DNA of 64,000 bases, from assembly GCA_041651155.1 (NCBI GenBank), contig JBAZJU010000008.1, forward strand, positions 1,932 to 65,931, read 5' to 3'. A program made the translations under genes and the position numbers. The stretch's first letter is position 1, and each line of letters opens with the position of its first letter. Below the pieces are notes generated by a model that saw nothing but the letters and a program-made list of their open reading frames with translations, was not told where the DNA came from and ran no database searches. Positions 2,720 to 38,337 of this stretch are shown one piece after another. Origin of the DNA: Patescibacteria group bacterium (GTDB taxonomy: Bacteria; Patescibacteriota; Patescibacteriia; CAIXNZ01).

Positions 2720-3778
2720 TTACATTTTTGAACTTTGCTCCATGGTTGAAGGCGAGGCAACATTTTTAAGCAAAGGCAGATCATCAAGCAAATAGCCGGT
2801 GCCTCTGACTACAGCAGTTAAGGGATCATCAGCCACAAAAACCGGAATTTGAGTGGCTCGGGAAATGGCAATGTCTAGAGATTTTAAAAGCGCGCCGCCG
2901 CCAGTTAGCAGGATGCCTCTCTCATAAATATCTGCCACTAATTCCGGCGGAGTAATTTCCAGGGTAGCTTTGACATTATCAATAATTATTCTGACAGATT
3001 TTGCCAAGGCTTCCCTGATCTGGCTGTCATTAACAATAATTTCTTTGGGCAGGCCAGTCACCAAATCACGGCCTCTCATCTGGGCTTCAAGGGGCTGCTT
3101 TAATTCTGCGGCTGAACCGATTTTAATTTTAATTTCTTCAGCAACTTTTTCGCCTAAAAGCAAGTTGAATTTGCTGCGCGCATATTGAATAATATTTTTG
3201 TTCATTTCATCACCGGCGATTTTTATAGTTTTCCAGGTCACAACGCCGCCTAAAGAAATTACTGCTATCTCAGAAGTACCGCCGCCAATATCAACAATCA
3301 TATTGCCCAAAGCTTCTTCAATCGGCAAACGGCAACCGATGGCCGCTGCCATTGATTCTTCAACCAGATAAACCTCGCGCGCACCGGCAGAATAAGCCGC
3401 ATCTTCAACTGCTTTTCTTTCCACTTCAGTAATATCCAATGGCACCCCTATAACTACTCTTGGTCGAGGCAGCAAATTAAAGCCTTCAGCATGGATTTTA
3501 TCAATGAAATATTTAAGCATTTTCTCAGTCACTTCAAAATCAGAAATTACGCCGTCAACCAAAGGTTTAATCGCAATAATATGGGCCGGAGTTTTGCCGA
3601 CCATTTTTTTGGCTTCACCGCCCACTGCTAAAATCTGATCAGTTTTAGAATTAATGGCCACGACTGATGGCTCATTAATCACAATCCCCTTATCTTTGAC
3701 ATAAACTAAAGTATTGGCAGTGCCTAAGTCAATGCCAATATCTTTGGAAAATCTGCCTAGAATTCTATCAAAAATCAT
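2720..3778 (-). CDS. mreB: rod shape-determining actin homolog MreB
   Basis: 352 aa, MIFDRILGRFSKDIGIDLGTANTLVYV...; actin/Hsp70 fold phosphate-binding motifs (DLGTANT, DIGGGTSE). Confidence 0.95.
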   Translation of the reverse strand: MIFDRILGRFSKDIGIDLGTANTLVYVKDKGIVINEPSVVAINSKTDQILAVGGEAKKMVGKTPAHIIAIKPLVDGVISDFEVTEKMLKYFIDKIHAEGFNLLPRPRVVIGVPLDITEVERKAVEDAAYSAGAREVYLVEESMAAAIGCRLPIEEALGNMIVDIGGGTSEIAVISLGGVVTWKTIKIAGDEMNKNIIQYARSKFNLLLGEKVAEEIKIKIGSAAELKQPLEAQMRGRDLVTGLPKEIIVNDSQIREALAKSVRIIIDNVKATLEITPPELVADIYERGILLTGGGALLKSLDIAISRATQIPVFVADDPLTAVVRGTGYLLDDLPLLKNVASPSTMEQSSKM

Positions 3779-3780
3779 AA

Positions 3781-3812
3781 TGATACTAATTTACAAATAT
3801 TATACTAATGAT
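3781..3812. promoter_or_regulatory. conserved 24-nt leader motif GATACTAATTTACAAATATTATAC (two ATACTAA repeats; contains TATAAT on the minus strand), immediately upstream of the mreB start
   Basis: 23/24 identical to the copy at 5626-5649, which sits upstream of the 5208..5600-proS operon. Confidence 0.5.
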
Positions 3813-3957
3813 ACAAATAGTTCCCCTGTTTTAATTCCAGATACCTGTCCATTTTACCTTTCTTACCTGTCATCCGACCTGTCTGCCATAGCTTAAGCGG
3901 AGGCAGAAGCTTTAGCGTAGGATGACCCCTTTTACCCTTCTTTCTCTTTTTACTCTT

Positions 3958-5211
3958 TTAAATTAATCCTTTAAGGTATTTTATCAGTTTATCCAGCTTA
4001 ACTATTTCCAGCTTATCAGAATTTCTCGGCTTTATTTCCACGCTTTTAGCTTGCAAAGTTTTTGCGCTTAAAACAAGCCTGAACGGAATACCGATTAAAT
4101 CACTGTCTTTTAATTTAATTCCAGCTGATTCTTCCCTATCATCATATAGCACTTCAAAGCCAGCTTTAACCAGCTCATTATATAACTTGTCCCCATTTTT
4201 TGCAAGTTCCTTTTCTGAACCTAAAGTCAGTAAATGCAGGGCAAAAGGAGCCACTTCTTGGGGCCAAATAATACCCTTATTATCATGATGAATTTCAACT
4301 ATAGTCCCCATAAGTCTGCCCAAACCCATACCATAACAACCCATAGTAATAATAACTTCCTGCCCCTCGCTATTATTTACTTTTAAATCAAAAGGAAGTG
4401 AGTATTTTGTCTTAAGCTTAAAAATATTGCCTGTTTCAATGGCCTTGGCTTCTTTAAAATCTTTAACAGTCAGATTGCAGGTTTCACATTTAGTTATAAC
4501 CTCAATAATTTCTTTATTATAAGCAATTTTACATTTTGGGCAGATATAAATTGTATCTTCACCGGCTGGCGTGACTGTTTGAAATTCATGTGAATATTTT
4601 GAGAATGAAGATCCAGAAGCCAAAGTCAGATATGTTTCTGCTCTAATCCCTGCTCTTTGAAAAATCTTAAAATAAGCATCTTTAGCTTTTTCATAATATT
4701 CATCCAAATCTTTTTCGTCTAAATGGAAAGAATAAAGGTCTTTCATGACAAATTCCCTGCCACGCAAAATGCCGGACTTTGAACGCAATTCCATTCTGAA
4801 TTTATTTTGAAATTGATAAATATAGACCGGTAAATCTTTGTAGGAATTGATGAATTTTTTCATTAATGGCACAACCACTTCTTCATGAGTCGGTCCCAGC
4901 GCAAATTCATGGCCGCTTGAATCTTTAACTTTGTATAAATCATCCATGCTTGACCAACGGCCTGTTTTTTCCCAATTATCTTTAGGATGCAATGAGGGCA
5001 TCACAATTTCCTGGCCGCCAATATTATTCATTTCTTCACGAATAATATTCTCAAGCTTTTTAAAAACTCTTAAGCCCAGTGGCAATAGAGTATAGACGCC
5101 GGCTGCCAATTTATCAATAAAGCCTGCCCTAATTAATAATTGGGCATTAAGGCTTTTTTCCTCCTCCCCTATTTCTTTTTTAGTTTTGGTAAATAAAAAT
5201 GATTGTTTCAT
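3958..5211 (-). CDS. proS: prolyl-tRNA synthetase, short bacterial type without the INS editing domain; carries a CxxC...CxxC insertion
   Basis: 417 aa. Aligns closely to the ProRS N-terminus and class II motifs (LIRAGFIDKLAAGVYTLLPLG, LGPTHEEVVVPL, FRMELRSKSGILRGREFVMKDLYSFH). Contains the insert CPKCK...CETC. Confidence 0.9.
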   Translation of the reverse strand: MKQSFLFTKTKKEIGEEEKSLNAQLLIRAGFIDKLAAGVYTLLPLGLRVFKKLENIIREEMNNIGGQEIVMPSLHPKDNWEKTGRWSSMDDLYKVKDSSGHEFALGPTHEEVVVPLMKKFINSYKDLPVYIYQFQNKFRMELRSKSGILRGREFVMKDLYSFHLDEKDLDEYYEKAKDAYFKIFQRAGIRAETYLTLASGSSFSKYSHEFQTVTPAGEDTIYICPKCKIAYNKEIIEVITKCETCNLTVKDFKEAKAIETGNIFKLKTKYSLPFDLKVNNSEGQEVIITMGCYGMGLGRLMGTIVEIHHDNKGIIWPQEVAPFALHLLTLGSEKELAKNGDKLYNELVKAGFEVLYDDREESAGIKLKDSDLIGIPFRLVLSAKTLQAKSVEIKPRNSDKLEIVKLDKLIKYLKGLI

Positions 5212-5600
5212 ATTTTTATGCTTGGTTTAGATTTATAGCCCATGAAAAATATTTCTAAGATGACAAAGGCCAGAATTAAGAAAAAAATGTTTCTCCAGAT
5301 TAACAAATTAGCGCTTTTTAAAAACAAGCTGATGACTATTAACAAAGAAAACCAAACTGCCTGGCGGAATGAGGTAATAACTTTTCTGAAGATTAAATGC
5401 TCTGAGGTAAAAAATATCCTGGCAATCAGGCCAATTATGGAAAAAATCCCGATTAAAGTCAGCAATAAGCTGAAATAAAACAAAATTAATGCTAACAGAT
5501 TGGCCTTTGTCGGATCAAAAAAATAAACTACTGCTAAAAAAGCAAAAAAGCAGGCAATGGTGCATAAAAGCATTAAAATAATATAAGATCTTAATGTCAT
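5208..5600 (-). CDS. small polytopic membrane protein, function unknown
   Basis: 130 aa, about 4 predicted TM helices. Its stop overlaps the proS start, so it is probably co-transcribed with proS. Confidence 0.45.
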   Translation of the reverse strand: MTLRSYIILMLLCTIACFFAFLAVVYFFDPTKANLLALILFYFSLLLTLIGIFSIIGLIARIFFTSEHLIFRKVITSFRQAVWFSLLIVISLFLKSANLLIWRNIFFLILAFVILEIFFMGYKSKPSIKI

Positions 5601-5610
5601 AATTATGACT

Positions 5611-5696
5611 TAGTATATTAAGTAGGGATACTAATTTACGAATATTATACGAATAATACTAATTGGAACCGTATGAAAATTTGAGAACTATTAGTA
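5611..5696. promoter_or_regulatory. cluster of four ATACTAA/TTAGTAT heptamers including the 24-nt conserved leader motif, upstream of the membrane-protein-proS operon
   Basis: ttagtat (5612), atactaa (5626), atactaa (5654), ttagtat (5690). Read directly from the sequence. Confidence 0.5.
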
Positions 5697-5702
5697 TATT
5701 TT

Positions 5703-5744
5703 GCCTGCCTGCCCTGCCTACCGGCAGGCAGGCGGCAGGCAGGT
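5703..5744. other. GC-rich imperfect palindrome (gcctgcctgccctgcctaccggcaggcaggcggcaggcagg) in an otherwise AT-rich 390-bp intergenic region
   Basis: Read directly from the sequence. GTAG is present in the loop on the minus strand. Confidence 0.5.
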
Positions 5745-5987
5745 ATTGAATTCGTACATTAGTATCCAAATATAGATAATGGCGTTTTACCAAATTTAGG
5801 CAAATACGGCACTAAAACAAAAAAACGCTAAGAACAAGTTAGCTTAATTTTAGCAAATTTATATAAATTTAGCAATTGCCAAAATGGCCCAAGAACATTA
5901 TTTAAATACCTTAATTTTCTTAAATTAACTAAATAAAAAACACCACGCAACGCGTGACGTTTTTGCAATAAAATCAATTTATACAAA

Positions 5988-22398: not shown

Positions 22399-25300
22399 TC
22401 AAATCCTAAATTCACAAATTTCCCTAAAATCACAAAAGCTGCATTTGTGGTACTCAGGGCTGGCTGAAAACTGGCTAGATTTAATTTCTTCAATTGTGGT
22501 AATAAATTCATTTTCAAGCTTGTCTAATTCTTTGTCCGATCCTAAAAATGACAACTGAGAATTATTATCAATGTAATAAAATGTTAATTTGCCAACCGGA
22601 TTCCCGCCTGTTATTTCTGGTAAATTCAAACAGGCAAATTGATATAAAAGTAATTGCGTTTTTTCATCTAAACTTAATTTATCTTTTGGCGAACCAGTCT
22701 TGTAATCAATTAATTCCACTGTTTTATCAGGCAATAAATCAATGCGATCAATAAATCCCCTAATTGTATAAAATTCATTTTTAGAACGAGACATTTTAAT
22801 GTTAAAACCTTTTTCCAGACTAAGCGTATTTAAAATTTTATCCTTATTTTCTTCATAGAATAATTTTATGAATTCCCTGCCTTTTTTAAGATATTTTTCT
22901 TTATCCTCTTTATTATTAAACCATTCATCAATCCAGGAATCTGCAAAGATTTTTTTAAATTCTTCAAAACTGACCAGGTCGCCTATTTTTTTGCTTTCAC
23001 CTTTGGAGCTAGTTTTAGGGCTAAATAAATCTGTTTGGGCACTTTGAATCTTTGAATTTGCTAAAACATAAAATTTCTGTAAAGCAGTATGCATGCTTTT
23101 GCCATAAGAAAATACGCCCTTGCCCAAAACCGGAATTTTAAATATATGGGCCAGTTTATACTGATAAGGACAGGTGCGAAAGGCCGTAATTTGGGAAAAA
23201 GAAAATTGGGTCGGCAAAGCAAAAACTTCTTTTTGTTTTTTCTTACTGGCAACCTGTATTTCTGCTTTATTGCCAATACTTTTTTCTGTAGCCTTGGAAA
23301 CTTGCTGATCAAGCTTAAACCCTTTATTTGTTTGAGCTAATTCTGCCAAAAACTGAGAAATTTTCTTTTTTCGCGCGCCGCCATAATCATCTGCAGACGT
23401 TAAAAATAAGCCTTTTTTAGCGCGCGTCATTGCCACATAAAACAAACGTCTTTCTTCCTGCAAATGAAAATCTCCTTCTGGCAAAATATCTTTAACTAGT
23501 GGCTCGGGAATTTCAATAGGCTCTCCTCTTTTCACAGTTGGAAATCGCTGTTCAACTAAATTTGGAATAAAAACATATTCAAATTCCAGGCCCTTGGCAG
23601 AATGCACAGTCATAATTTTAATCACATCCGGCCCCATTTCCAGATCAAATTTCAATGGACCGCTTTCGCCTGATTCTAATTCCAGCTCCAGTTCAGCCAT
23701 AAAATTCTGCAACGATGGATCACTGGCGCCTTCTTCAAAAGTTTTTATCCTGTTATAGAATTGGTTTAAATAATCAGCATTTTGCTTGGCCAAAGCTTCG
23801 TCAGCGCCCAAAATCTTGGCCAGATATTTGGAATCCTGCATAAAAGCCAGCATTATCTCGCCGACTGTTTTTTCGCGGGTTAAAGCAGAATGCTTTTGGA
23901 TTAAAGATAAAAAGAAATTAATTTGCGAAACTGTTTCAGCAGAGATGCCGAAAATTGTAGAAGCTAATTTTAAGGCCTCGTATAAAGAAAAATTCTTCTT
24001 ATTGGCAAAATGGCAAAGTTTGGTTAATTCCTCGTCAGAGATATTGACAATCGGCGAGCGCAACAGCCGAAAAACCGCCGGGCTTTCATGATAATTATCT
24101 AAAAGCTTAAAATAATTTAAAATATCCAGAATAATCGGCTTATTATATAAGCCGCGCAAAGCCACAAATTGGTAAGGCAGGTTTGTTTTGCGCAAAAAAT
24201 TAATAAAGGTCGTGGCTGAATCATTGGCGCGAACTAAGATTGCAAAATCCGACCAATTTAATTCTTTATTCTTTTTTCTTAATTCTAAAATTTTATTTAT
24301 CACTCCCCTTACCTCTTCATCAAGAGTTTTAAAATGCAAATGCTCAATTTCAGACACACATTTATTATTGGCCTTTAGTTGTTTTTTAATCTTTGAACCT
24401 TTTTGCGCCTCTAAACGGTTTGGATTATTTAATTGGATAAAATTGTAAGACAAATCCAAAATATCCTGGCAGGAGCGGTAATTTTCAGTTAAAACAATAT
24501 TTTGTGCTTTAAGATAATCTTTTTGAAATTGCAAAATATTGGAGACGGAGGCGCCCCTAAATTTATAAATTGATTGGTCATCATCAGCCACAACTGTTAA
24601 ATTAGCCTTCTCCCCTGCCAAAAGTTTGACCAAATTATACTGGGCAAAATTTGTGTCTTGGAATTCATCAACTAAAATGTATTCAAATTGTTTCTGATAT
24701 TTTTGCAATATATTTTTGCGCTGTTTAAATAATCTTAAAGTGTAATTAATCAGATCTCCAAAATCAAAAGCATTATTATCCAAAAGTAATTGCTGATAAA
24801 CATGATAAGCATTGGCAATTTCTTTTAAACGCCTGACTTCCTCAACTAATCCTTCGTCGCCCTGTTTTGTATCCAAATCCAATTCCCTTTTTTCTGCATA
24901 AGCCAGATAATCTTCTGGATAAATTTCCTCATCTTTACAGCGGGAAAAATGAGTTAATAGCGCATGAATAAATTTTGTGGGATTGCCTAATGGCTTATAA
25001 TAATCCAAATCAAACTTATCCAAATTCTGCCTCACCAAAAGCCAGGCGCTCGTTTGATTTAGCAATTTAAAATCATTGCTTAAGCCAATATCCAGAGCAT
25101 GTTGTTCCAAAATTTTCTGGCAAAAAGAATGAAAAGTGGAAATCCACAAATCAACATAACCATAAGGCAAAAGCTTATCTACTCTTTCCTGCATTTCCCC
25201 AGCTGCTTTGTCAGTAAAAGTTAAAGCCAAAATCGCATCGGTTTTCACATCTTTATCCAAAATCAAATGGCTGATTCTTTGGGTAATGACCATTGTTTTG

Positions 25301-25434
25301 CCAGTGCCTGCGCCTGCCACAATCAAAAGAGGACCATTGCCAAAGGTAATGGCTTTTTTCTGCTGGAGATTAAATTTAGGTTTATTTTCAGACATATTTA
25401 ACTTAATTTTACAGGAAAAACTGAATTTAAACAA
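22399..25434 (-). CDS. UvrD/PcrA-family DNA helicase fused to a C-terminal PD-(D/E)XK nuclease with a Cas4/AddB-like 4-Cys cluster
   Basis: 1011 aa. Helicase motifs: GAGTGKT (Walker A), DEFQDTN, VVADDDQSIYKFRGA. The nuclease segment has GFIDRIDLL...DYKTG and cysteines C...CSFCDFREIC. The start may instead be the Met at 25395 (MSENKPKF...). Confidence 0.8.
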   Translation of the reverse strand: MFKFSFSCKIKLNMSENKPKFNLQQKKAITFGNGPLLIVAGAGTGKTMVITQRISHLILDKDVKTDAILALTFTDKAAGEMQERVDKLLPYGYVDLWISTFHSFCQKILEQHALDIGLSNDFKLLNQTSAWLLVRQNLDKFDLDYYKPLGNPTKFIHALLTHFSRCKDEEIYPEDYLAYAEKRELDLDTKQGDEGLVEEVRRLKEIANAYHVYQQLLLDNNAFDFGDLINYTLRLFKQRKNILQKYQKQFEYILVDEFQDTNFAQYNLVKLLAGEKANLTVVADDDQSIYKFRGASVSNILQFQKDYLKAQNIVLTENYRSCQDILDLSYNFIQLNNPNRLEAQKGSKIKKQLKANNKCVSEIEHLHFKTLDEEVRGVINKILELRKKNKELNWSDFAILVRANDSATTFINFLRKTNLPYQFVALRGLYNKPIILDILNYFKLLDNYHESPAVFRLLRSPIVNISDEELTKLCHFANKKNFSLYEALKLASTIFGISAETVSQINFFLSLIQKHSALTREKTVGEIMLAFMQDSKYLAKILGADEALAKQNADYLNQFYNRIKTFEEGASDPSLQNFMAELELELESGESGPLKFDLEMGPDVIKIMTVHSAKGLEFEYVFIPNLVEQRFPTVKRGEPIEIPEPLVKDILPEGDFHLQEERRLFYVAMTRAKKGLFLTSADDYGGARKKKISQFLAELAQTNKGFKLDQQVSKATEKSIGNKAEIQVASKKKQKEVFALPTQFSFSQITAFRTCPYQYKLAHIFKIPVLGKGVFSYGKSMHTALQKFYVLANSKIQSAQTDLFSPKTSSKGESKKIGDLVSFEEFKKIFADSWIDEWFNNKEDKEKYLKKGREFIKLFYEENKDKILNTLSLEKGFNIKMSRSKNEFYTIRGFIDRIDLLPDKTVELIDYKTGSPKDKLSLDEKTQLLLYQFACLNLPEITGGNPVGKLTFYYIDNNSQLSFLGSDKELDKLENEFITTIEEIKSSQFSASPEYHKCSFCDFREICEFRI

Positions 25435-25443
25435 TTTGATGTT

Positions 25444-25515
25444 ATTTGAGGCTAAGCCTTGAACTAAAGCTTAACTTTCTGGAGTCTCAAATTACTTCAA
25501 GGCTTAGCCTCAAAC
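25444..25515. promoter_or_regulatory. 20-bp perfect inverted repeat (tttgaggctaagccttgaa ... ttcaaggcttagcctcaaa) with a 32-nt spacer containing CTAAAGC, in the divergent region between the helicase-nuclease gene and the small-gene run
   Basis: Read directly from the sequence. Confidence 0.6.
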
Positions 25516-25594
25516 GTAATCCAGTCAATTTGACCAAATTTGAAAATATTGCTTTAATAAAGACAACTTTGAACCTTAAAAAGGAGACGCAAAA

Positions 25595-25843
25595 ATGCCA
25601 CAAGAAAAGCAGAACAGAATAAAAGGAATTGGCTTGGTTTTAGCTTCTGAAGCAGCTATTCGGGAAATAGAAACTAAAGATAAAATTTTCCCCTCATCTT
25701 TCGTTCGTCCACCAAATTTTGACAAGGTTATGCCTGATCGGGGTAGCCCAATATCCGAAATAATTGATCCTGAAATGGCAAATTGGAAAAGAGACTGCGA
25801 AAAAAAGAAACGAAAAGCAAAGCCAAAAAAAGGAGGAAAATAG
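25595..25843 (+). CDS. small basic protein, unknown function
   Basis: 82 aa. Consensus SD AAGGAG 8 nt upstream. K/R-rich C-terminus. First gene of a plus-strand run of tiny genes. Confidence 0.45.
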   Translation: MPQEKQNRIKGIGLVLASEAAIREIETKDKIFPSSFVRPPNFDKVMPDRGSPISEIIDPEMANWKRDCEKKKRKAKPKKGGK

Positions 25844-25846
25844 AGT

Positions 25847-26141
25847 GACAAATGAAGAACGTCGGGAATTTAAAAAAAAGTATAAGTCACAACCCTACAC
25901 ACCACCGCCTATAAAAAAACGTCACATTACTCAGACAACCTTCACAAAACAGATAGGAATTAACAAAGAAACAGCAAGGGAGCTGAAGGAGATTCAGGCT
26001 AAAGCCAAAAAGAAAAAAGGTAAGACCAGCTTTGCAAAGGATTTAAAGAAAGCCTTCAAAGTGGCTGAAAAGGTCCAAAAGCGGCTTAAAGAAATATCCA
26101 GAGTAGATGAAGACCGACTCCGCACCAGGATGACAATTTGA
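25847..26141 (+). CDS. small basic protein, unknown function (GTG start inferred)
   Basis: The ORF frame is open from 25764. The only well-placed start is the GTG at 25847, preceded by AAGGAGG; the in-frame ATG upstream would overlap the previous gene. Product VTNEERREFKKKYK...RLRTRMTI is very basic. Confidence 0.4.
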
Positions 26142-26169
26142 TCTTTCAGGACGCCAAAGGAGGTTTAAA

Positions 26170-26346
26170 ATGTCTGAGAAAAAAATCGATCGCTTGGGGC
26201 GAAAAGAAAATATCTGGCCCAGGAAGGAACTTGAACGAATTTTTGAATTAGCTAAACGAGATGAAATACGATGGGAAAAGATGCAAAAAATTGACGAATC
26301 CAAACTTCGCCAAAGAATCACTTTCCCTGGCTTTGAAAACTTATAA
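26170..26346 (+). CDS. small charged protein (58 aa), unknown function
   Basis: SD AAAGGAGG 7 nt upstream of the ATG at 26170. Product MSEKKIDRLGRKENIWPRKELERIFELAKRDEIRWEKMQKIDESKLRQRITFPGFENL. Below the 60-aa ORF-track cutoff. Confidence 0.4.
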   Translation: MSEKKIDRLGRKENIWPRKELERIFELAKRDEIRWEKMQKIDESKLRQRITFPGFENL

Positions 26347-26356
26347 GGAGCTGAAA

Positions 26357-26800
26357 ATGAGGAAAAAGCTTGACAGAGAGCAATTTCTAGGCCCCAAGGG
26401 TTCTGAATTAAGAAAGTTCATGGAGCGACCTGGCTGTTATTACCCAGGCTCGGATGGAATTGACGAAGAAACAGCAAGAAAGCTCAATGAGCACATAGAT
26501 AAAGCTCATCGAGGCGAATTAAAAGGAGGATTCCCTAAAGAAGTGCTGGAAAGAGAAAAGCGACTCAAGTTTCCCAGAAAGAGAAAAAGTTTCAACAGAG
26601 ATAAATTCCTCGGACCTCCGGGTTCTGAATTAAGAAAACTCATGATGCGACCTGGGCGTCTGGAGCTAGGTCCGGAAGGAATTGACGAAGAAACTGCCAA
26701 GAAACTAAATGAACTATTCGAAAAAGTCGAACGTGGCGAAGTCCCCGAAGGAATTCCACAGCACGTTCTTGAACGGGAAAAACAACTAAGATTCTGCTAG
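26357..26800 (+). CDS. small protein made of two tandem ~65-aa repeats (FLGPxGSELRKxMxRPG...GIDEETAxKLNE...VLEREKxLxF), unknown function
   Basis: The ORF track begins at 26261. The likely start is ATG 26357 (MRKKLDREQFLGP...), preceded by TAAGGAG. The internal duplication is obvious in the translation. Confidence 0.5.
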   Translation: MRKKLDREQFLGPKGSELRKFMERPGCYYPGSDGIDEETARKLNEHIDKAHRGELKGGFPKEVLEREKRLKFPRKRKSFNRDKFLGPPGSELRKLMMRPGRLELGPEGIDEETAKKLNELFEKVERGEVPEGIPQHVLEREKQLRFC

Positions 26801-26809
26801 TGCAAAACT

Positions 26810-26835
26810 AAAAGGCGCCAATAAGCGCCTTTTAA
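26810..26835 (+). terminator. intrinsic terminator after the four-gene small-protein run
   Basis: aaaaggcgc-caataa-gcgcctttt hairpin followed by a T-rich tract. Confidence 0.5.
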
Positions 26836-26903
26836 AATTGGCTTTTGTGCTTGACAACCAGCTAAATTTTTGCTTAACTTAAAGCAAATTTAAACAAAGG
26901 TCT

Positions 26904-26930
26904 CCTTCGTCCCGCGGAGCGGGACTACGG
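26904..26930. repeat. REP-like GC-rich hairpin element, copy 1 (CCTTCGTCCCGC-gga-GCGGGACTACGG); GTAG head on the minus strand
   Basis: 7-bp stem gtcccgc / gcgggac. 24/27 identical to the reverse complement of 37383-37409. Confidence 0.7.
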
Positions 26931-26950
26931 CGGACCGAGGGGAGGGAAAA

Positions 26951-27145
26951 ATGAGCGACATGTTGCTGGTTGAAGAACATCTTTGCCTAAACTGCAAAGA
27001 AACGTTCAGAATTGTGGTGATTGAAGAATCAGTCAAATTGACCAAAGAAGACAAGCGACTACTTAAAAATGACGGAATCTTTACTATCAAAAAAGGCAAA
27101 AAATTCGAATGCCCGAATTGCCTGCACAAAGTAGAAGTAAAATAA
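26951..27145 (+). CDS. zinc-ribbon mini-protein (CxxC...CxxC), tandem paralog 1
   Basis: 64 aa. Motifs CLNC...CPNC. SD GGGGAGGG. Upstream leader is similar to that of the paralog at 27226. Confidence 0.5.
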   Translation: MSDMLLVEEHLCLNCKETFRIVVIEESVKLTKEDKRLLKNDGIFTIKKGKKFECPNCLHKVEVK

Positions 27146-27225
27146 GTTCGCCGTCGCTTTGGCCTAGGCTTGCCTTGCAAAACAGGTCAAGACGGGTAAA
27201 GCTATAGCGACCGAAGGGAGGGAAA

Positions 27226-27429
27226 ATGACAGAGCCAGATGAAAAATTTACAACCAAAGACATTGATTGTCCGAATTGCCACAAAACAAATCGCCTTGTA
27301 ATCATTGAAAAAGGCCATGCGTTAAGTGAAAAATATCAAATCCTATTGACAAACGCCGGCTGCACAATCACTAATTCTGAATCAGAATTTGTCTGCAACC
27401 ATTGCGACCAGAAAAATGAAATAAAATAA
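27226..27429 (+). CDS. zinc-ribbon mini-protein (CxxC...CxxC), tandem paralog 2
   Basis: 67 aa. Motifs CPNC...CNHC. SD GGGAGGG. Followed by a strong intrinsic terminator. Confidence 0.5.
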   Translation: MTEPDEKFTTKDIDCPNCHKTNRLVIIEKGHALSEKYQILLTNAGCTITNSESEFVCNHCDQKNEIK

Positions 27430-27437
27430 TTTCCAGC

Positions 27438-27473
27438 AAAAAAGCCGTCCCGAAAGCGAGACGGCGTTTTTTA
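27438..27473. terminator. bidirectional intrinsic terminator between convergent genes
   Basis: aaaaaagccgtc-ccgaaagcga-gacggcgtttttt: a GC stem flanked by an A-run and a T-run. Confidence 0.7.
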
Positions 27474-28497: not shown

Positions 28498-29172
28498 TTA
28501 AGTTTCTATATTATCAATTAATTCGGGGGAATTTAAACTCGTGTATTGCCAATTTTTTGGCAGGCCATGCTTCAAATGGTTATAAACCGTGTAATCATAA
28601 TGGTTGTCCCAATCCTTCTGTTTTTTCAAATGGTTATCATGGAAACGGATGTAATGGTCGTAAAATTTTCTCTGCCACTTGAATTTAGGGTACGGCGTTC
28701 CATTTTTAAATTTTTGATTAAATAAATCTTGATACCGCTGAACATCAAATTTCCATACATATAATTCATGGGGATTTAATATGGGTAGTCCAATAATCTT
28801 ACCTTTAAAAACATCCCCCATTCCCCGTAGGCCACACAATATTGTGTGGCCTACGGGGTTATTGGGATAATTATTTGTATAACCCATTATAATATTAATA
28901 TTGCGAGAAACATTTCTTTTCAAAGATTTCATCACGTGCGAAATATCAAATTTATTGTTTGGTTCAATCATCAAATTCACATGATCATAAATAATTGAAA
29001 AGGCATATAATTTAAATCCTTTCAATACTTTACAAATCTTTAAATTCTCAATAAATAAATCACAAAAAATTTGCTCCTTAAAATATGGGTAATTATTTTT
29101 CGTCTTAAACACGACGTAATAAATCGCGCCCGGGAAACAAATTCGCCTTATGGAATTTTTATGCAACATCAT
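28498..29172 (-). CDS. IS200/IS605-family Y1 (HUH) transposase-like protein, RAYT-like, probably catalytically degenerate
   Basis: 224 aa. Aligns to IS200 TnpA blocks: IYYVVFKTKNNYPYF matches YHIVFAPKYRR; YDHVNLMIEPNNKFDISHVMKSLKRNVS matches ADHIHMLLEIPPKMSVSSFMGYLKGKSS. The HUH motif reads HVN and the catalytic Tyr block is disrupted. Contains a 36-bp perfect palindrome. Confidence 0.6.
   Translation of the reverse strand: MMLHKNSIRRICFPGAIYYVVFKTKNNYPYFKEQIFCDLFIENLKICKVLKGFKLYAFSIIYDHVNLMIEPNNKFDISHVMKSLKRNVSRNINIIMGYTNNYPNNPVGHTILCGLRGMGDVFKGKIIGLPILNPHELYVWKFDVQRYQDLFNQKFKNGTPYPKFKWQRKFYDHYIRFHDNHLKKQKDWDNHYDYTVYNHLKHGLPKNWQYTSLNSPELIDNIET
28823..28858. repeat. 36-bp perfect palindrome inside the transposase-like CDS, with a GTAG head (ccccGTAGgccacacaatattgtgtggcCTACgggg)
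   Basis: Read directly from the sequence. In frame (12 codons, PVGHTILCGLRG) and located where the catalytic Tyr block of IS200 TnpA should be. Confidence 0.9.
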
Positions 29173-32504: not shown

Positions 32505-32759
32505 TTAATCGCGGGGAAATTCCCAGCAGATTAGCTTGTATTGCCCTTTGGCAGTTAAGTTATTTGGGTCGGCGAACTCAATTTTAGCCAGCTGCAGAGT
32601 TTTCAGCTTAAGGTCAGCCACAATTTTTGTTAAATCTGCTTTGTTTCCACTTAAATTCAGGCCAACATATTCTTTTTTTCCCAAAGTATAGATTTCAATA
32701 CCTTTATCTAACTTGTCTTTGAGCTCAGCTGGTCTGCAGAGCATAAACATGACAAGCAT
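32505..32759 (-). CDS. hypothetical small protein (84 aa)
   Basis: ORF with a downstream terminator. Sits in the GC-elevated block. No recognisable motif. Confidence 0.3.
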   Translation of the reverse strand: MLVMFMLCRPAELKDKLDKGIEIYTLGKKEYVGLNLSGNKADLTKIVADLKLKTLQLAKIEFADPNNLTAKGQYKLICWEFPRD

Positions 32760-32835: not shown

Positions 32836-33072
32836 CTATTTAGAGTCAGCTTGTGGCAAAAATTCGCTGGCAATAGAACAATCTAATCTTTTTTCGCAGA
32901 TATAGCCGCAATATAATTCACGCATGATCCAGCCGAATTTTTCAATAAAATCACTCGTTGCTTGTTGTTTGTCAACAATGTGTGCAAACCATTTGTGCTT
33001 GTCAATATGCTTTTTGATTATTGTGCTTTGAACGCTGGCCAGTTGTCTTAAGTTTGTGCAATGATCAAGCAT
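32836..33072 (-). CDS. hypothetical small protein (78 aa)
   Basis: ORF only. GC-elevated. Cys-containing C-terminus. Confidence 0.25.
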   Translation of the reverse strand: MLDHCTNLRQLASVQSTIIKKHIDKHKWFAHIVDKQQATSDFIEKFGWIMRELYCGYICEKRLDCSIASEFLPQADSK

Positions 33073-35928: not shown

Positions 35929-37317
<1,389 letters not shown>

Positions 37318-37382
37318 TTAAATGATTAAATTGTTAATTGCTAAATTGATATTTGAATTTATTTTGTTTTTTGCCTTCGCAA

Positions 37383-37409
37383 ACCGTAGTCCCGCTGGGC
37401 GGGACGAAG
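37383..37409. repeat. REP-like GC-rich hairpin element, copy 2 (ccGTAGtcccgc-tgg-gcgggacgaagg), in the atpD-atpG spacer
   Basis: Same element in the opposite orientation. The GTAG tetranucleotide lies immediately 5' of the stem. Confidence 0.7.
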
Positions 37410-37431
37410 GTTTGAATTTTAGCATTTGTCA

Positions 37432-38337
37432 TTACTCAAGGGCTGCTTTGCCTCCGGCGATTTCTGCAATTTCTCTGGTAATCGCTGCCTGCCTTAATTG
37501 GTTATATGCCAATGTTAATTCTGAAATCATATCACCGGCAGCTTCATTGGCATTTCTCATGGCCAGCATCCTGGCTGAATGTTCAGCAGCATTGCTTTCC
37601 AAAACCGCCTGATAAATCTGGACCTCAAGCAGCCTGGGCAATAATACATCTAAGATAATTTGCGGCTTGGGTTCAAATAAATACTCAAAACTTTCTTTCT
37701 TGTTTTCCTGAATAACGTCTCCAATCTCTCCTAAAAATTTATCTCTAATTGTTTTAATGGGTAATATTTGCTTTACTCTGGGCACTTGTTTTAAGGCTGA
37801 AACATAATCAGTATAAACCAAGGCAATCTGATCATATTTTTTCTGTAAAAAATCAGTTAAAATCATTTTTTGGATTGGTCTTATTTCTTCTGAGTCTTTT
37901 AAAATATCAGGCTTAATAAATTCAGCCGCAACCTTTTGTCCTGATCTGGACATTGCTCTCGCTCCTTTTTTACCTAAACAAATTAATTCAACCTCCAAAT
38001 TTTCCTTAAGACTCTTTTGCTGTTTGATATATTCCACCGCAGTTTTAATCACTTGTTGGTTAAAAGATCCGCACAAACCGCGATTTGAAGTAATCAAAAC
38101 AACTGCCATTTTTTTAATTTCCTTACGGTTTCTTAATAATGGGTGGCGCTGAATTTTAATTTTTTGCGCCACATTTAAAATTAACTGCCAAGCCAGACTG
38201 GAATATGGCCTAGTCGCCAGAACAGAATTAACAGCACGCCGCATTTTTGAAGATGCGACCATTTCCATGGCTTTGGTAATCTTTTTTGTATTGCCAATTG
38301 ATTTTATTCTGTGCCTAATGTCCTTTGTATTTGGCAT
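37432..38337 (-). CDS. atpG: F1 ATP synthase gamma subunit
   Basis: 301 aa. Conserved C-terminus ITREIAEIAGGKAAL. Confidence 0.9.
   Translation of the reverse strand: MPNTKDIRHRIKSIGNTKKITKAMEMVASSKMRRAVNSVLATRPYSSLAWQLILNVAQKIKIQRHPLLRNRKEIKKMAVVLITSNRGLCGSFNQQVIKTAVEYIKQQKSLKENLEVELICLGKKGARAMSRSGQKVAAEFIKPDILKDSEEIRPIQKMILTDFLQKKYDQIALVYTDYVSALKQVPRVKQILPIKTIRDKFLGEIGDVIQENKKESFEYLFEPKPQIILDVLLPRLLEVQIYQAVLESNAAEHSARMLAMRNANEAAGDMISELTLAYNQLRQAAITREIAEIAGGKAALE

What the first reader, a model, noticed from the sequence alone, without database searches (positions are those of the whole stretch)
25595..27429. GC-rich block of six tiny plus-strand genes with consensus Shine-Dalgarno sites, including tandem zinc-ribbon mini-proteins and an internally duplicated protein
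GC is ~45%, against a local background of ~35%. The six ORFs are 58-147 aa. Each is preceded by a near-consensus SD (AAGGAGG, GGGAGGG) at ideal spacing, which is rare elsewhere in this window. The first four are extremely K/R/E-rich. The fourth consists of two ~65-aa tandem repeats (FLGPxGSELRKxMxRPG...GIDEETAxKLNE...VLEREKxL). The last two are paralogous CxxC-35aa-CxxC zinc ribbons with duplicated leaders that contain an AAGCT(A/T)TAGCGA...GAAGG motif and a REP-like hairpin. The block sits between a helicase/Cas4-like nuclease fusion gene, divergently transcribed and separated by a 20-bp perfect inverted repeat, and a transposase-like gene. It ends with two strong terminators. None of the proteins is recognisable. 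The block could be a horizontally acquired module, such as a phage-derived or toxin-antitoxin-like or nucleic-acid-binding set, or a set of very highly expressed small structural proteins.
Basis: partly seen in the sequence, partly recalled or inferred. Interest (0 to 1): 0.65.

Follow-up and report, generated by a model that had tools for sequence, protein, structure and literature searches.

The report
Orphan small-protein operons in a Parcubacteria genome
The six tiny genes are real but are a fast-evolving, clade-specific set of small basic and zinc-ribbon proteins of unknown function, inherited at a fixed genomic spot in a narrow group of Patescibacteria, not a recently imported foreign module.

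Summary
The six plus-strand ORFs exist as described. NCBI annotates them as hypothetical proteins WC460_05730-05755 of a Patescibacteria MAG. All six have strong Shine-Dalgarno sites, while 47 of 52 other genes in the window have none. ORF4 is a fused tandem duplication (61% identity). ORF5 and ORF6 are paralogous C4 zinc ribbons.

The GC claim is overstated: 40.8% against 36.3%, and 9% of same-size windows are as high.

The same helicase | small genes | AttH-lipocalin arrangement occurs in at least six related lineages with saturated synonymous sites. A more distant relative keeps only one zinc-ribbon gene beside the helicase.

No protein matches Pfam, NCBIfam, PHROGs, PADLOC, PDB, phage or IMG/VR data. 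The proteins evolve much faster than their neighbours (31-83% against 81-92% identity). Their short modules are duplicated, fused and shuffled between relatives.

A roughly 115-nt divergent control region with two palindromes is almost invariant across relatives.

Best guess, which is inferred: these are small nucleic-acid- or protein-binding factors co-regulated with the helicase-nuclease. Modest interest.

The parts
25445..25514 (.). Inverted repeat of 23-nt arms with a 24-nt spacer. Each arm contains an 11-bp palindrome, AGGCT(A/T)AGCCT, centred at 25454 and 25505 (51 bp apart). It fills the space between the two divergent -35 boxes.
   Evidence: I1, 96% complementary. (fold z = -7.6 / -8.6). 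(near-invariant in 7 other loci). (single locus in the window).
25530..25558 (+). Promoter-like site P1 for ORF1-4: -35 TTGACC, a 17-nt spacer ending in TGc (extended -10), then -10 TTTAAT.
   Evidence: Read from the sequence. Conserved in all related loci. The consensus scanner missed it because of its rule on position 2 of the -10 hexamer.
25595..25843 (+). ORF1, 82 aa, pI 9.9, with a basic C-terminal tail (module A). SD is AAAGGAG.
   Evidence: The orthologue in L011 is 49% identical, with codon position 2 conserved more than 1 and more than 3.
25845..26141 (+). ORF2, 98 aa, GTG start 1 nt after the ORF1 stop, pI 10.5. It is a fusion of module B (N-terminus, equal to separate 52-aa genes in relatives), a fragment of the ORF4 unit (GINKETARELKE) and module C (C-terminus, paralogous to ORF3).
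   Evidence: (repeat D1).
26170..26346 (+). ORF3, 58 aa (module C). SD is AAAGGAGG.
   Evidence: (links to the ORF2 C-terminus and the L008 57-aa protein). (close orthologue in L104).
26357..26800 (+). ORF4, 147 aa: two fused copies (26357-26575 and 26576-26797) of a roughly 73-aa unit, module D. In all relatives the unit is a single free-standing gene.
   Evidence: The AlphaFold2 model of the unit has three helices, pLDDT 81.
26810..26835 (+). Intrinsic terminator-like hairpin T1 (AAAAGGCGCC-AATAA-GCGCCTTTT) ending the ORF1-4 unit.
   Evidence: z = -3.0. The identical sequence is present in L011 and L012.
26851..26880 (+). Promoter-like site P2 for ORF5-6: -35 TTGACA, a 17-nt spacer with TGc, then -10 TTAACT.
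   Evidence: Read. The same architecture is present in L011, L012 and L013.
26899..26936 (+). Two-stem GC-rich hairpin in the ORF5 leader. Core sequence: CCTTCGTCCCGC-nnn-GCGGGACTACGG.
   Evidence: A second copy lies at 37374-37413 on the minus strand, with a different but still complementary outer stem.
26951..27145 (+). ORF5, 64 aa, C4 zinc ribbon (CxxC-38-CxxC). SD is GGGAGGG. It is the member that is also kept in the most distant syntenic relative.
   Evidence: AlphaFold2 topology is beta-beta-alpha-beta-beta-beta, pLDDT 83.
27226..27429 (+). ORF6, 67 aa, acidic (pI 5.5) paralogue of ORF5. Its leader is a decayed copy of the ORF5 leader.
27438..27473 (.). Bidirectional terminator T2, shared with the convergent AttH-like gene.
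   Evidence: (z = -3.4).
22399..25395 (-). Divergent neighbour: a UvrD-type helicase fused to a PD-(D/E)XK (Cas4-like) nuclease. Probable start is the ATG at 25395, only 10 nt downstream of a -10-like TAAAAT, so the mRNA is near-leaderless.
   Evidence: Pfam. (conserved upstream sequence). (91-92% aa identity to L011 and L012).

Best explanation
SHOWN. The six ORFs are genuine protein-coding genes of a narrow Parcubacteria (Patescibacteria) clade. They were inherited in place between a UvrD/PD-(D/E)XK helicase-nuclease gene and an AttH/CrtC-like lipocalin gene.

They form two compact transcription units:
- P1 -> ORF1-ORF2-ORF3-ORF4 -> T1
- P2 -> ORF5-ORF6 -> T2
Each unit has a near-consensus extended -10 promoter, strong Shine-Dalgarno sites and a hairpin terminator.

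The proteins are built from at least five short modules:
- A, or an alternative A'
- B
- C
- D, the ORF4 unit
- Z, a C4 zinc ribbon
Between close relatives these modules are duplicated, fused, lost and reordered. They diverge several-fold faster than the neighbouring genes.

INFERRED, about 25-30% likely. They are small soluble nucleic-acid- or protein-binding factors: basic helical proteins plus zinc ribbons. Their expression is coupled to the helicase-nuclease through the shared, almost invariant divergent control region. In that region two palindromic sites sit about -56 to -60 from each promoter. On this reading the proteins act in, or modulate, DNA-end processing or repair.
For: - **Coding status.** Against orthologues, codon positions are conserved in the order 2 > 1 > 3 in most comparisons. 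The four Cys are invariant in 7 zinc-ribbon sequences. SD sites are correctly spaced in the window and in all relatives.
- **Vertical inheritance.** The same flanking genes and order are found in L010/L011, L012, L008/L009, L100-L103, L104 and an ENA contig. L013 (65% aa identity) keeps an ORF5-like gene divergent from the helicase gene. Only 2 of 80 AttH loci from GTDB species carry any block protein.
- **Fast evolution.** ORF1 is 49% identical to its orthologue, the D unit 58-79%, ORF5 31-83% and ORF6 40-55%. The helicase is 91-92% identical and AttH 81%.
- **Module shuffling.**
- **Basic, hydrophilic proteins.**
- **Confident folds.** AlphaFold2 gives pLDDT 81 and 83.
- **Control region.** It is about 97-100% identical over roughly 115 nt in 8 loci, although synonymous sites nearby are only 66-69% identical.
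- **Recurring neighbours of module D.** More distant D-family genes again lie beside small Cys-rich proteins (L004, L099) or near UvrD-type helicase genes (L004, L005).
- **The palindrome elsewhere.** AAGGCTAAGCCTT also occurs about 200 nt upstream of the UvrD gene in L004.
Against: - No protein matches any family of known function by sequence or fold. The functional part therefore rests on neighbourhood, charge and a conserved intergenic region.
- Three of the five or six distinct D-family contexts show no helicase within reach.
- The L004 palindrome is a post hoc single hit.
- The palindromes could serve the helicase gene alone, or could act as an RNA hairpin.
- There is no expression or binding data.
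Confidence: 0.45

Rival explanations
1. An old mobile, phage-derived or conflict-related islet, such as a toxin-antitoxin, anti-defence or defence accessory set. It would be lodged in a hotspot between two core genes, with cargo that turns over rapidly.
For: - Gene content differs in nearly every relative.
- The proteins evolve fast.
- The block is the only plus-strand island.
- The SD-led genes contrast with an SD-poor host background.
- An IS200-like Y1 gene lies two genes away.
Against: - There are no hits in PHROGs, PADLOC, INPHARED phages or IMG/VR. The single weak IMG/VR match has no ORF under it.
- No integrase, no flanking direct repeats and no recognisable toxin or antitoxin fold.
- The promoter and operator region and the position are conserved across diverged species.
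- GC3 is host-like.
Confidence: 0.15
2. Abundant structural small proteins, either nucleoid-associated or ribosome-associated. These could include clade-specific ribosomal or hibernation proteins.
For: - Near-consensus promoters, very strong SDs and terminators.
- Basic pI of ORF1-4.
- The zinc-ribbon pair is reminiscent of paralogous zinc-ribbon ribosomal proteins (own knowledge; a lead only).
Against: - No match to any ribosomal or NAP family in Pfam or NCBIfam.
- They evolve much faster than their neighbours, and gene content varies. Abundant structural proteins normally evolve slowly.
- The distribution is very narrow.
Confidence: 0.15
3. Disordered, hydrophilin-like stress protectants (ORF1-4) with no specific partner. 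The zinc ribbons would be unrelated neighbours.
For: - GRAVY of -1.0 to -1.3 and high charge.
- Low-complexity K-rich variants occur in relatives, such as the L101 55-aa protein.
- Rapid divergence is typical of disordered proteins.
Against: - The D unit is predicted to fold (pLDDT 81) and has conserved motifs.
- Operon linkage to the zinc ribbons recurs in most relatives and in L099 and L004.
Confidence: 0.1
4. The ORFs are chance reading frames in a purine-rich non-coding or RNA-coding region.
For: - Plus-strand purine content of 61% is the highest in the window.
- There are no database relatives with known function.
Against: - Codon-position conservation, invariant Cys, and SD plus start codons at correct spacing in every relative.
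- The D family was found independently in distant genomes.
- No Rfam family matches.
Confidence: 0.02

Closest known systems
Small stand-alone C4 zinc-ribbon / zinc-finger micro-proteins (e.g. Pfam HVO_2753_ZBP, Zn_ribbon_4, Zn_ribbon_8)
   Same: - 64-67 aa in length.
- Two CxxC knuckles, invariant across the family.
- Predicted beta-hairpin ribbons.
- Several members give weak, sub-threshold matches to these Pfam models.
   Different: - No member reaches any family's gathering score.
- A helix plus strand is inserted between the knuckles (38-residue spacer).
- No significant PDB or BFVD fold match.
Unknown-function gene families of uncultivated taxa, including Patescibacteria (FESNov catalogue, PMC10849945)
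   Same: - Short, lineage-restricted families under purifying selection.
- A conserved genomic neighbourhood is the only functional clue.
   Different: - I could not check whether these families are in that catalogue.
- That paper stresses transmembrane and secreted novel proteins in Patescibacteria. These proteins are soluble and highly charged.
Divergent promoter regions with shared upstream operators (e.g. CRP-type class I sites near -61; own knowledge)
   Same: Two palindromic sites lie about five helical turns apart. Each is centred about 56-60 bp upstream of one of two divergent promoters, and they are extremely conserved.
   Different: - No regulator is identified.
- The arms also form a 23-bp hairpin, so an RNA or cruciform role is not excluded.
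- The motif AAGGCTWAGCCTT is not, to my knowledge, a described operator. It does not resemble the GAAC-N4-GTTC-type LexA box that I recall for Gram-positive-like SOS systems. That is memory, not a test; the Patescibacteria SOS paper was not available.
SD-led genes in SD-poor genomes (e.g. rpsU in Bacteroidia; own knowledge)
   Same: A small minority of genes carry strong SDs in a genome where most have none.
   Different: - The 16S rRNA 3' tail of this organism is not in the window, so the anti-SD sequence is assumed.
- The SD-led set here consists of orphan small genes plus a GH113 hydrolase and a putative carbonic anhydrase. It does not include translation genes.

Membership tests
C4 zinc-ribbon proteins (generic fold class) | Two CxxC (or CxxxxC) knuckles conserved across homologues | tested here: met
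   C12, C15, C54 and C57 are invariant in 7 sequences. A CPNPNC variant occurs in L101.
C4 zinc-ribbon proteins (generic fold class) | Knuckles sit on beta-hairpins that form a ribbon | tested here: met
   AlphaFold2 model with pLDDT 83 and strands flanking both knuckles. This is a prediction only.
Any specific Pfam/NCBIfam zinc-ribbon family (HVO_2753_ZBP, Zn_ribbon_4/8, CoiA_N, RPAB4, etc.) | Score at or above the curated gathering threshold | tested here: not met
   The best scores are 15-20 bits against cut-offs of 25-34.
C4 zinc-ribbon proteins (generic fold class) | Binds zinc | not testable with these tools
   Needs metal analysis of purified protein.
Type II toxin-antitoxin module | Recognisable toxin fold paired with an antitoxin DNA-binding domain (HTH, RHH or AbrB) | tested here: not met
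   No Pfam, NCBIfam or PADLOC match for any of the six proteins. No PDB fold match.
Prophage remnant / mobile element cargo | Homologues in phage or plasmid sequence, with an integrase or transposase and flanking repeats | tested here: not met
   PHROGs, INPHARED and IMG/VR searches were negative. There are no flanking direct repeats. The nearest Y1 gene is outside the block and absent from relatives.
Recent horizontal acquisition | Absent from the same site in related genomes, with atypical composition | tested here: not met
   Syntenic in at least 6 related lineages. GC is +1.35 SD and GC3 is within the host range.
Ribosomal / nucleoid-associated proteins | Match to a known r-protein or NAP family, with slow evolution and broad conservation | tested here: not met
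   No family hits. 31-83% identity against 81-92% for the neighbours. The family has only 14 members at E <= 0.01 among 5.8 billion clusters.
REP elements / RAYT system | Short imperfect palindrome present in many intergenic copies, often flanking a Y1 (RAYT) gene | tested here: inconclusive
   The leader hairpin core has exactly two copies in 64 kb (26899-26936 and 37374-37413), with 0.02 expected by chance. Neither copy flanks the Y1 gene. The whole genome was not available.
Helix-hairpin-helix DNA-binding motif | hxxhxGhGxxxAxxhh motif with a helix directly preceding the hairpin, and a Pfam HHH match | tested here: not met
   GIDEETAxKL and GIGLVLA resemble the motif. However, there is no Pfam HhH hit, and the model puts a 14-residue loop before the helix.

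The most novel reading that the evidence does not exclude
The D-unit and zinc-ribbon mini-proteins are undescribed accessory or regulatory partners of the UvrD/PD-(D/E)XK helicase-nuclease. They might act as adaptors, end-binding factors or inhibitors, and they would be diversifying rapidly in episymbiotic Parcubacteria. The AAGGCTWAGCCTT palindrome pair would then be the operator of a new helicase-centred, DNA-damage-type regulon. The same palindrome lies upstream of a UvrD gene in a distant Parcubacteria genome that also carries a D-family gene.
Probability: 0.1. Interest if true: 0.65.

Novelty: new member of a known kind. Interest (0 to 1): 0.33.

Why it matters
Much of a Patescibacteria genome codes for small proteins with no assignable function. 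This locus is a clean example. It holds two protein families with no Pfam, NCBIfam or PDB match: the 73-aa D unit and a helix-inserted C4 zinc ribbon. Their boundaries, promoters and relatives are now defined.

Two features give experimental handles:
- An almost invariant divergent control region is shared with a DNA helicase-nuclease gene.
- The genes carry strong Shine-Dalgarno sites in a genome where most genes lack them.

If the link to the helicase is real, it would point to clade-specific control of DNA-end processing. If it is not, this is ordinary lineage-specific gene content.

Tried and rejected
- **Concatenated query.** A concatenated ORF1+2+3 query to the large protein search returned nothing, not even the proteins themselves. 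The result is uninformative and wasted one search, so ORF1, ORF2, ORF3, ORF5 and ORF6 never had a database-wide homology search. Their relatives come only from fetched loci.
- **Alignment-based locus searches.** Both failed for lack of conserved 7-10-residue stretches.
- **IMG/VR hit L092.** The match for ORF5 has no ORF under it. Rejected as spurious.
- **Rfam at a permissive E-value.** It matched only plant and animal miRNA precursor models to the long hairpin, plus other sub-threshold noise. Rejected.
- **Metagenome scan for the inverted repeat.** It recovered only the contig already held as L011.
- **SD-sequestering riboswitch or thermometer in the ORF5 and ORF6 leaders.** Whole-leader folds are not better than shuffles (z = -0.7 and -0.6) and the alternative pairings are not conserved. 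Not pursued.
- **GC-hairpin-like sequence in L019.** It lies beside what looks like a tRNA gene and was judged unrelated.
- **LexA/SOS box.** The palindrome does not resemble the LexA motifs I recall. The relevant Patescibacteria paper was not available.
Full report
**1. What is there**

The window is a low-GC (36.4%) contig. Exact-sequence look-ups place it in a Patescibacteria MAG, where the six ORFs are annotated as hypothetical proteins WC460_05730 to WC460_05755.

Almost every gene in the 64 kb is on the minus strand. The six small genes are the only plus-strand coding island.

| ORF | Coordinates | Length | Note |
|---|---|---|---|
| ORF1 | 25595-25843 | 82 aa | |
| ORF2 | 25845-26141 | 98 aa | GTG start, 1 nt after the ORF1 stop |
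| ORF3 | 26170-26346 | 58 aa | |
| ORF4 | 26357-26800 | 147 aa | |
| ORF5 | 26951-27145 | 64 aa | |
| ORF6 | 27226-27429 | 67 aa | |

The left neighbour is transcribed divergently. It is a UvrD-type helicase fused to a PD-(D/E)XK, Cas4-like nuclease. The right neighbour is convergent and is an AttH/CrtC-type lipocalin protein. An IS200-like Y1 gene lies one gene further on.

**2. Checking the observation**

*Shine-Dalgarno sites.* This claim holds and is the most striking measurable feature.
- All six genes have 5-8-nt SD matches at 4-9 nt spacing.
- I assumed a canonical anti-SD, because the 16S gene is not in the window. On that assumption the duplex energies are -7.4 to -12.5 kcal/mol, mean -10.7.
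- For 52 other genes the median is +0.25 (Mann-Whitney p = 1.4e-4). Only five of the others are at or below -6.
- The feature is therefore rare but not unique. It also occurs at two other orphan small genes (32505-32759 and 32836-33072), which have their own TTGACA promoters and terminators. It occurs too at a GH113 hydrolase gene, a putative carbonic-anhydrase-like gene and one 120-aa gene.

*GC content.* This claim is overstated.
- The block is 40.8% GC, against 36.3 +/- 3.3% for same-size windows.
- 8.8% of such windows are as high or higher. The window maximum of 45% lies at about 33 kb.
- GC3 values of 0.28-0.43 overlap those of other genes.
- What is extreme is coding-strand purine content (61%). 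It reflects the K/R/E/G-rich proteins.

*Repeats and paralogy.*
- The two halves of ORF4 are 61% identical (E = 3e-28).
- ORF5 and ORF6 are paralogous CxxC-38-CxxC proteins.
ORF2 contains a copy of the ORF4 motif: GINKETARELKE against GIDEETA(R/K)KLNE, with the DNA 72-83% identical (repeat D1). Its C-terminus is paralogous to ORF3.

*Signals.* The inverted repeat, the two terminators and the leader similarity exist. Details are corrected in the observation check.

**3. Are the genes real, and are they foreign?**

None of the six proteins matches Pfam, PHROGs, NCBIfam or PADLOC above noise.

An exhaustive HMMER search with ORF4 against 1.84 billion representative proteins found seven true relatives. 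All are single-unit proteins of 63-79 aa. A profile search of 5.8 billion clusters found 14. Every named one comes from a Patescibacteria or Parcubacteria MAG.

Looking up the contigs that encode these relatives gave the decisive result. Close relatives of the ORF4 unit (67-79% identity) sit in the same place: helicase (minus strand), then 4-5 tiny plus-strand genes, then AttH (minus strand).

A scan of GTDB species representatives with the AttH protein returned 80 loci.
- Only the two closest carry any block protein.
- L012 (81% identity, Candidatus Parcubacteria LacPavin_0920_SED4_MAG_37_11) has four small genes, including two zinc ribbons.
- L013 (65% identity) has a single ORF5-like zinc-ribbon gene, directly divergent from the helicase gene.

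Codon-aware comparisons:

| Gene | aa identity to orthologues |
|---|---|
| Helicase | 91-92% (third codon positions only 66-69% identical) |
| AttH | 81% |
| ORF1 | 49% |
| D unit (ORF4) | 58-79% |
| ORF5 | 31-83% |
| ORF6 | 40-55% |

- The helicase third-position figure shows that these are well-separated species.
- In most comparisons the small genes show position 2 conserved more than 1, and 1 more than 3, as expected for coding sequence.
- The four cysteines are invariant in seven zinc-ribbon sequences.

I conclude that the ORFs are real genes. They have been at this position since before these lineages split, and they evolve much faster than their neighbours.

No homologue was found in INPHARED phages or IMG/VR.

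**4. Anatomy and turnover**

Gene content differs in almost every relative.

| Lineage | Gene content, in order |
|---|---|
| L104 | C, D, a 225-aa membrane protein |

The two halves of ORF4 are each closer to the single-copy orthologues (71-79%) than to each other (59%). That fits a duplication and fusion in this lineage, followed by divergence of both copies.

The signals around the genes are conserved in relatives:
- P1: TTGACC, 17 nt, TGcTTTAAT
- T1
- P2: TTGACA, 17 nt, TGcTTAACT
- the strong SDs

**5. The conserved control region**

Between the helicase start (ATG at 25395, 10 nt downstream of a TAAAAT box) and P1 lies a 23-nt-arm inverted repeat at 25445-25514.

Each arm contains the palindrome AGGCT(A/T)AGCCT. 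The two centres are 51 bp apart. Each lies about 56-60 bp upstream of the nearer promoter's inferred start site.

Across eight loci this region of about 115 nt is almost invariant, while synonymous sites nearby are saturated. The few changes sit at the stem base, in the left arm (A to G, which would give a G-U pair in a plus-strand RNA) and in the loop. They do not decide between a DNA operator and an RNA hairpin.

The element is single-copy in the window.

Among roughly 1 Mb of fetched loci, the only other exact occurrence is AAAGGCTAAGCCTTT. It lies about 200 nt upstream of a UvrD-type helicase gene in L004, a distant Parcubacteria contig that also encodes a D-family protein. This is post hoc, with a rough chance estimate of 1e-4 for that region, but it is suggestive.

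**6. Function**

AlphaFold2 gives confident small folds:
- the D unit is an extended N-terminus plus three helices (pLDDT 81);
- the zinc ribbon is beta-beta-alpha-beta-beta-beta, with both knuckles at hairpins (pLDDT 83).

Foldseek against PDB and BFVD found nothing significant. Profile searches of PDB sequences also found nothing.

ORF1-4 are basic (pI 9.5-10.5), ORF5 is near neutral and ORF6 is acidic.

More distant D-family genes appear in five further contexts:

| Locus | Context of the D-family gene |
|---|---|
| L004 | downstream of FolD; overlapped by a Cys-rich 158-aa gene; near Macro, LigD_N and UvrD genes |
| L005 | downstream of FolD; near Macro and helicase genes |
| L099 | beside a 53-aa Cys4 protein |
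| L002/L003 | beside a 55-aa K/R/E-rich protein |
| L094 | after a sugar kinase gene |

Adjacency to a small zinc-binding protein, and to a UvrD-family helicase gene, therefore recurs but is not universal.

My best mechanistic guess has about 25-30% probability. These would be small nucleic-acid- or protein-binding factors, co-regulated with the helicase-nuclease from the shared control region and acting in or modulating DNA-end processing.

The rivals are:
- an old conflict-related or mobile islet;
- abundant structural proteins;
- hydrophilin-like protectants.

**7. Verdict**

The interpretation as a GC-rich, horizontally acquired module is not supported.

The locus is a clade-specific, rapidly remodelled pair of small-protein operons of unknown function. 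Such loci are common in CPR genomes. The parts most worth following up are the conserved palindromic control region and the SD contrast.

Noticed in passing
window 25396-25594 (core 25445-25560): The divergent control region between the helicase gene and ORF1 is about 97-100% identical in 8 related loci, although nearby synonymous sites are only 66-69% identical. It holds two AGGCT(A/T)AGCCT palindromes 51 bp apart. Each lies about -56 to -60 from one of the two divergent promoters, and together they form a 23-bp-arm hairpin (fold z = -7.6 to -8.6).
   Followed up: partly
L004 6030-6048 (about 200 nt upstream of the UvrD gene at 3745-5838, minus strand): The same palindrome, AAAGGCTAAGCCTTT, occurs upstream of a UvrD-type helicase gene in a distant Parcubacteria contig that also encodes a D-family protein (P0014). 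It is the only other exact hit in about 1 Mb of fetched loci. A possible helicase-linked operator.
   Followed up: partly
window 26899-26936 (+) and 37374-37413 (-): A two-stem hairpin with core CCTTCGTCCCGC-nnn-GCGGGACTACGG occurs twice, against 0.02 expected by chance. One copy is in the ORF5 leader. The other lies between the ATP synthase beta gene (35929-37296) and the gene upstream of it (37432-38337), in the same orientation as the downstream gene. The outer stems differ but stay complementary (GGTCTCC/GGCGGACC against AAACC/GGTTT). This suggests a structured RNA or a REP-like element.
   Followed up: partly
window 32505-32759 (-) and 32836-33072 (-): Two more orphan small genes (84 and 78 aa, no Pfam match). 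Each has a TTGACA-type promoter, an AAAGGAGG / AGGAGG SD and a terminator. They carry the same signal set as the block.
   Followed up: partly
window, all genes: 47 of 52 other genes lack any SD-like sequence and have AT-rich upstream regions. The helicase gene has a -10 box only 10 nt from its ATG, so its mRNA is near-leaderless. The few SD-led genes include a GH113 hydrolase (start 34777; the highest-GC gene, 45.8%) and a Pro_CA_2 protein (start 35354). For both, the likely start is a downstream ATG rather than the first in-frame start codon.
   Followed up: partly
window 1-64000: Extreme strand bias. Every ORF of at least 120 aa that is not an obvious shadow frame lies on the minus strand, except for the six-gene block. 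Cumulative GC skew falls monotonically across the window.
   Followed up: no
L011 3094-3276: In this relative, a 58-codon frame follows a perfect AAAGGAGG SD but has no properly spaced ATG, GTG or TTG (ATC at the expected spot). It may be a decaying gene or a non-canonical start.
   Followed up: no
window 28498-29172 (-): An IS200-like Y1 transposase-domain gene (Pfam E = 3e-8) lies beyond the AttH gene. The related contigs examined do not show it at this position, so it is variable.
   Followed up: no
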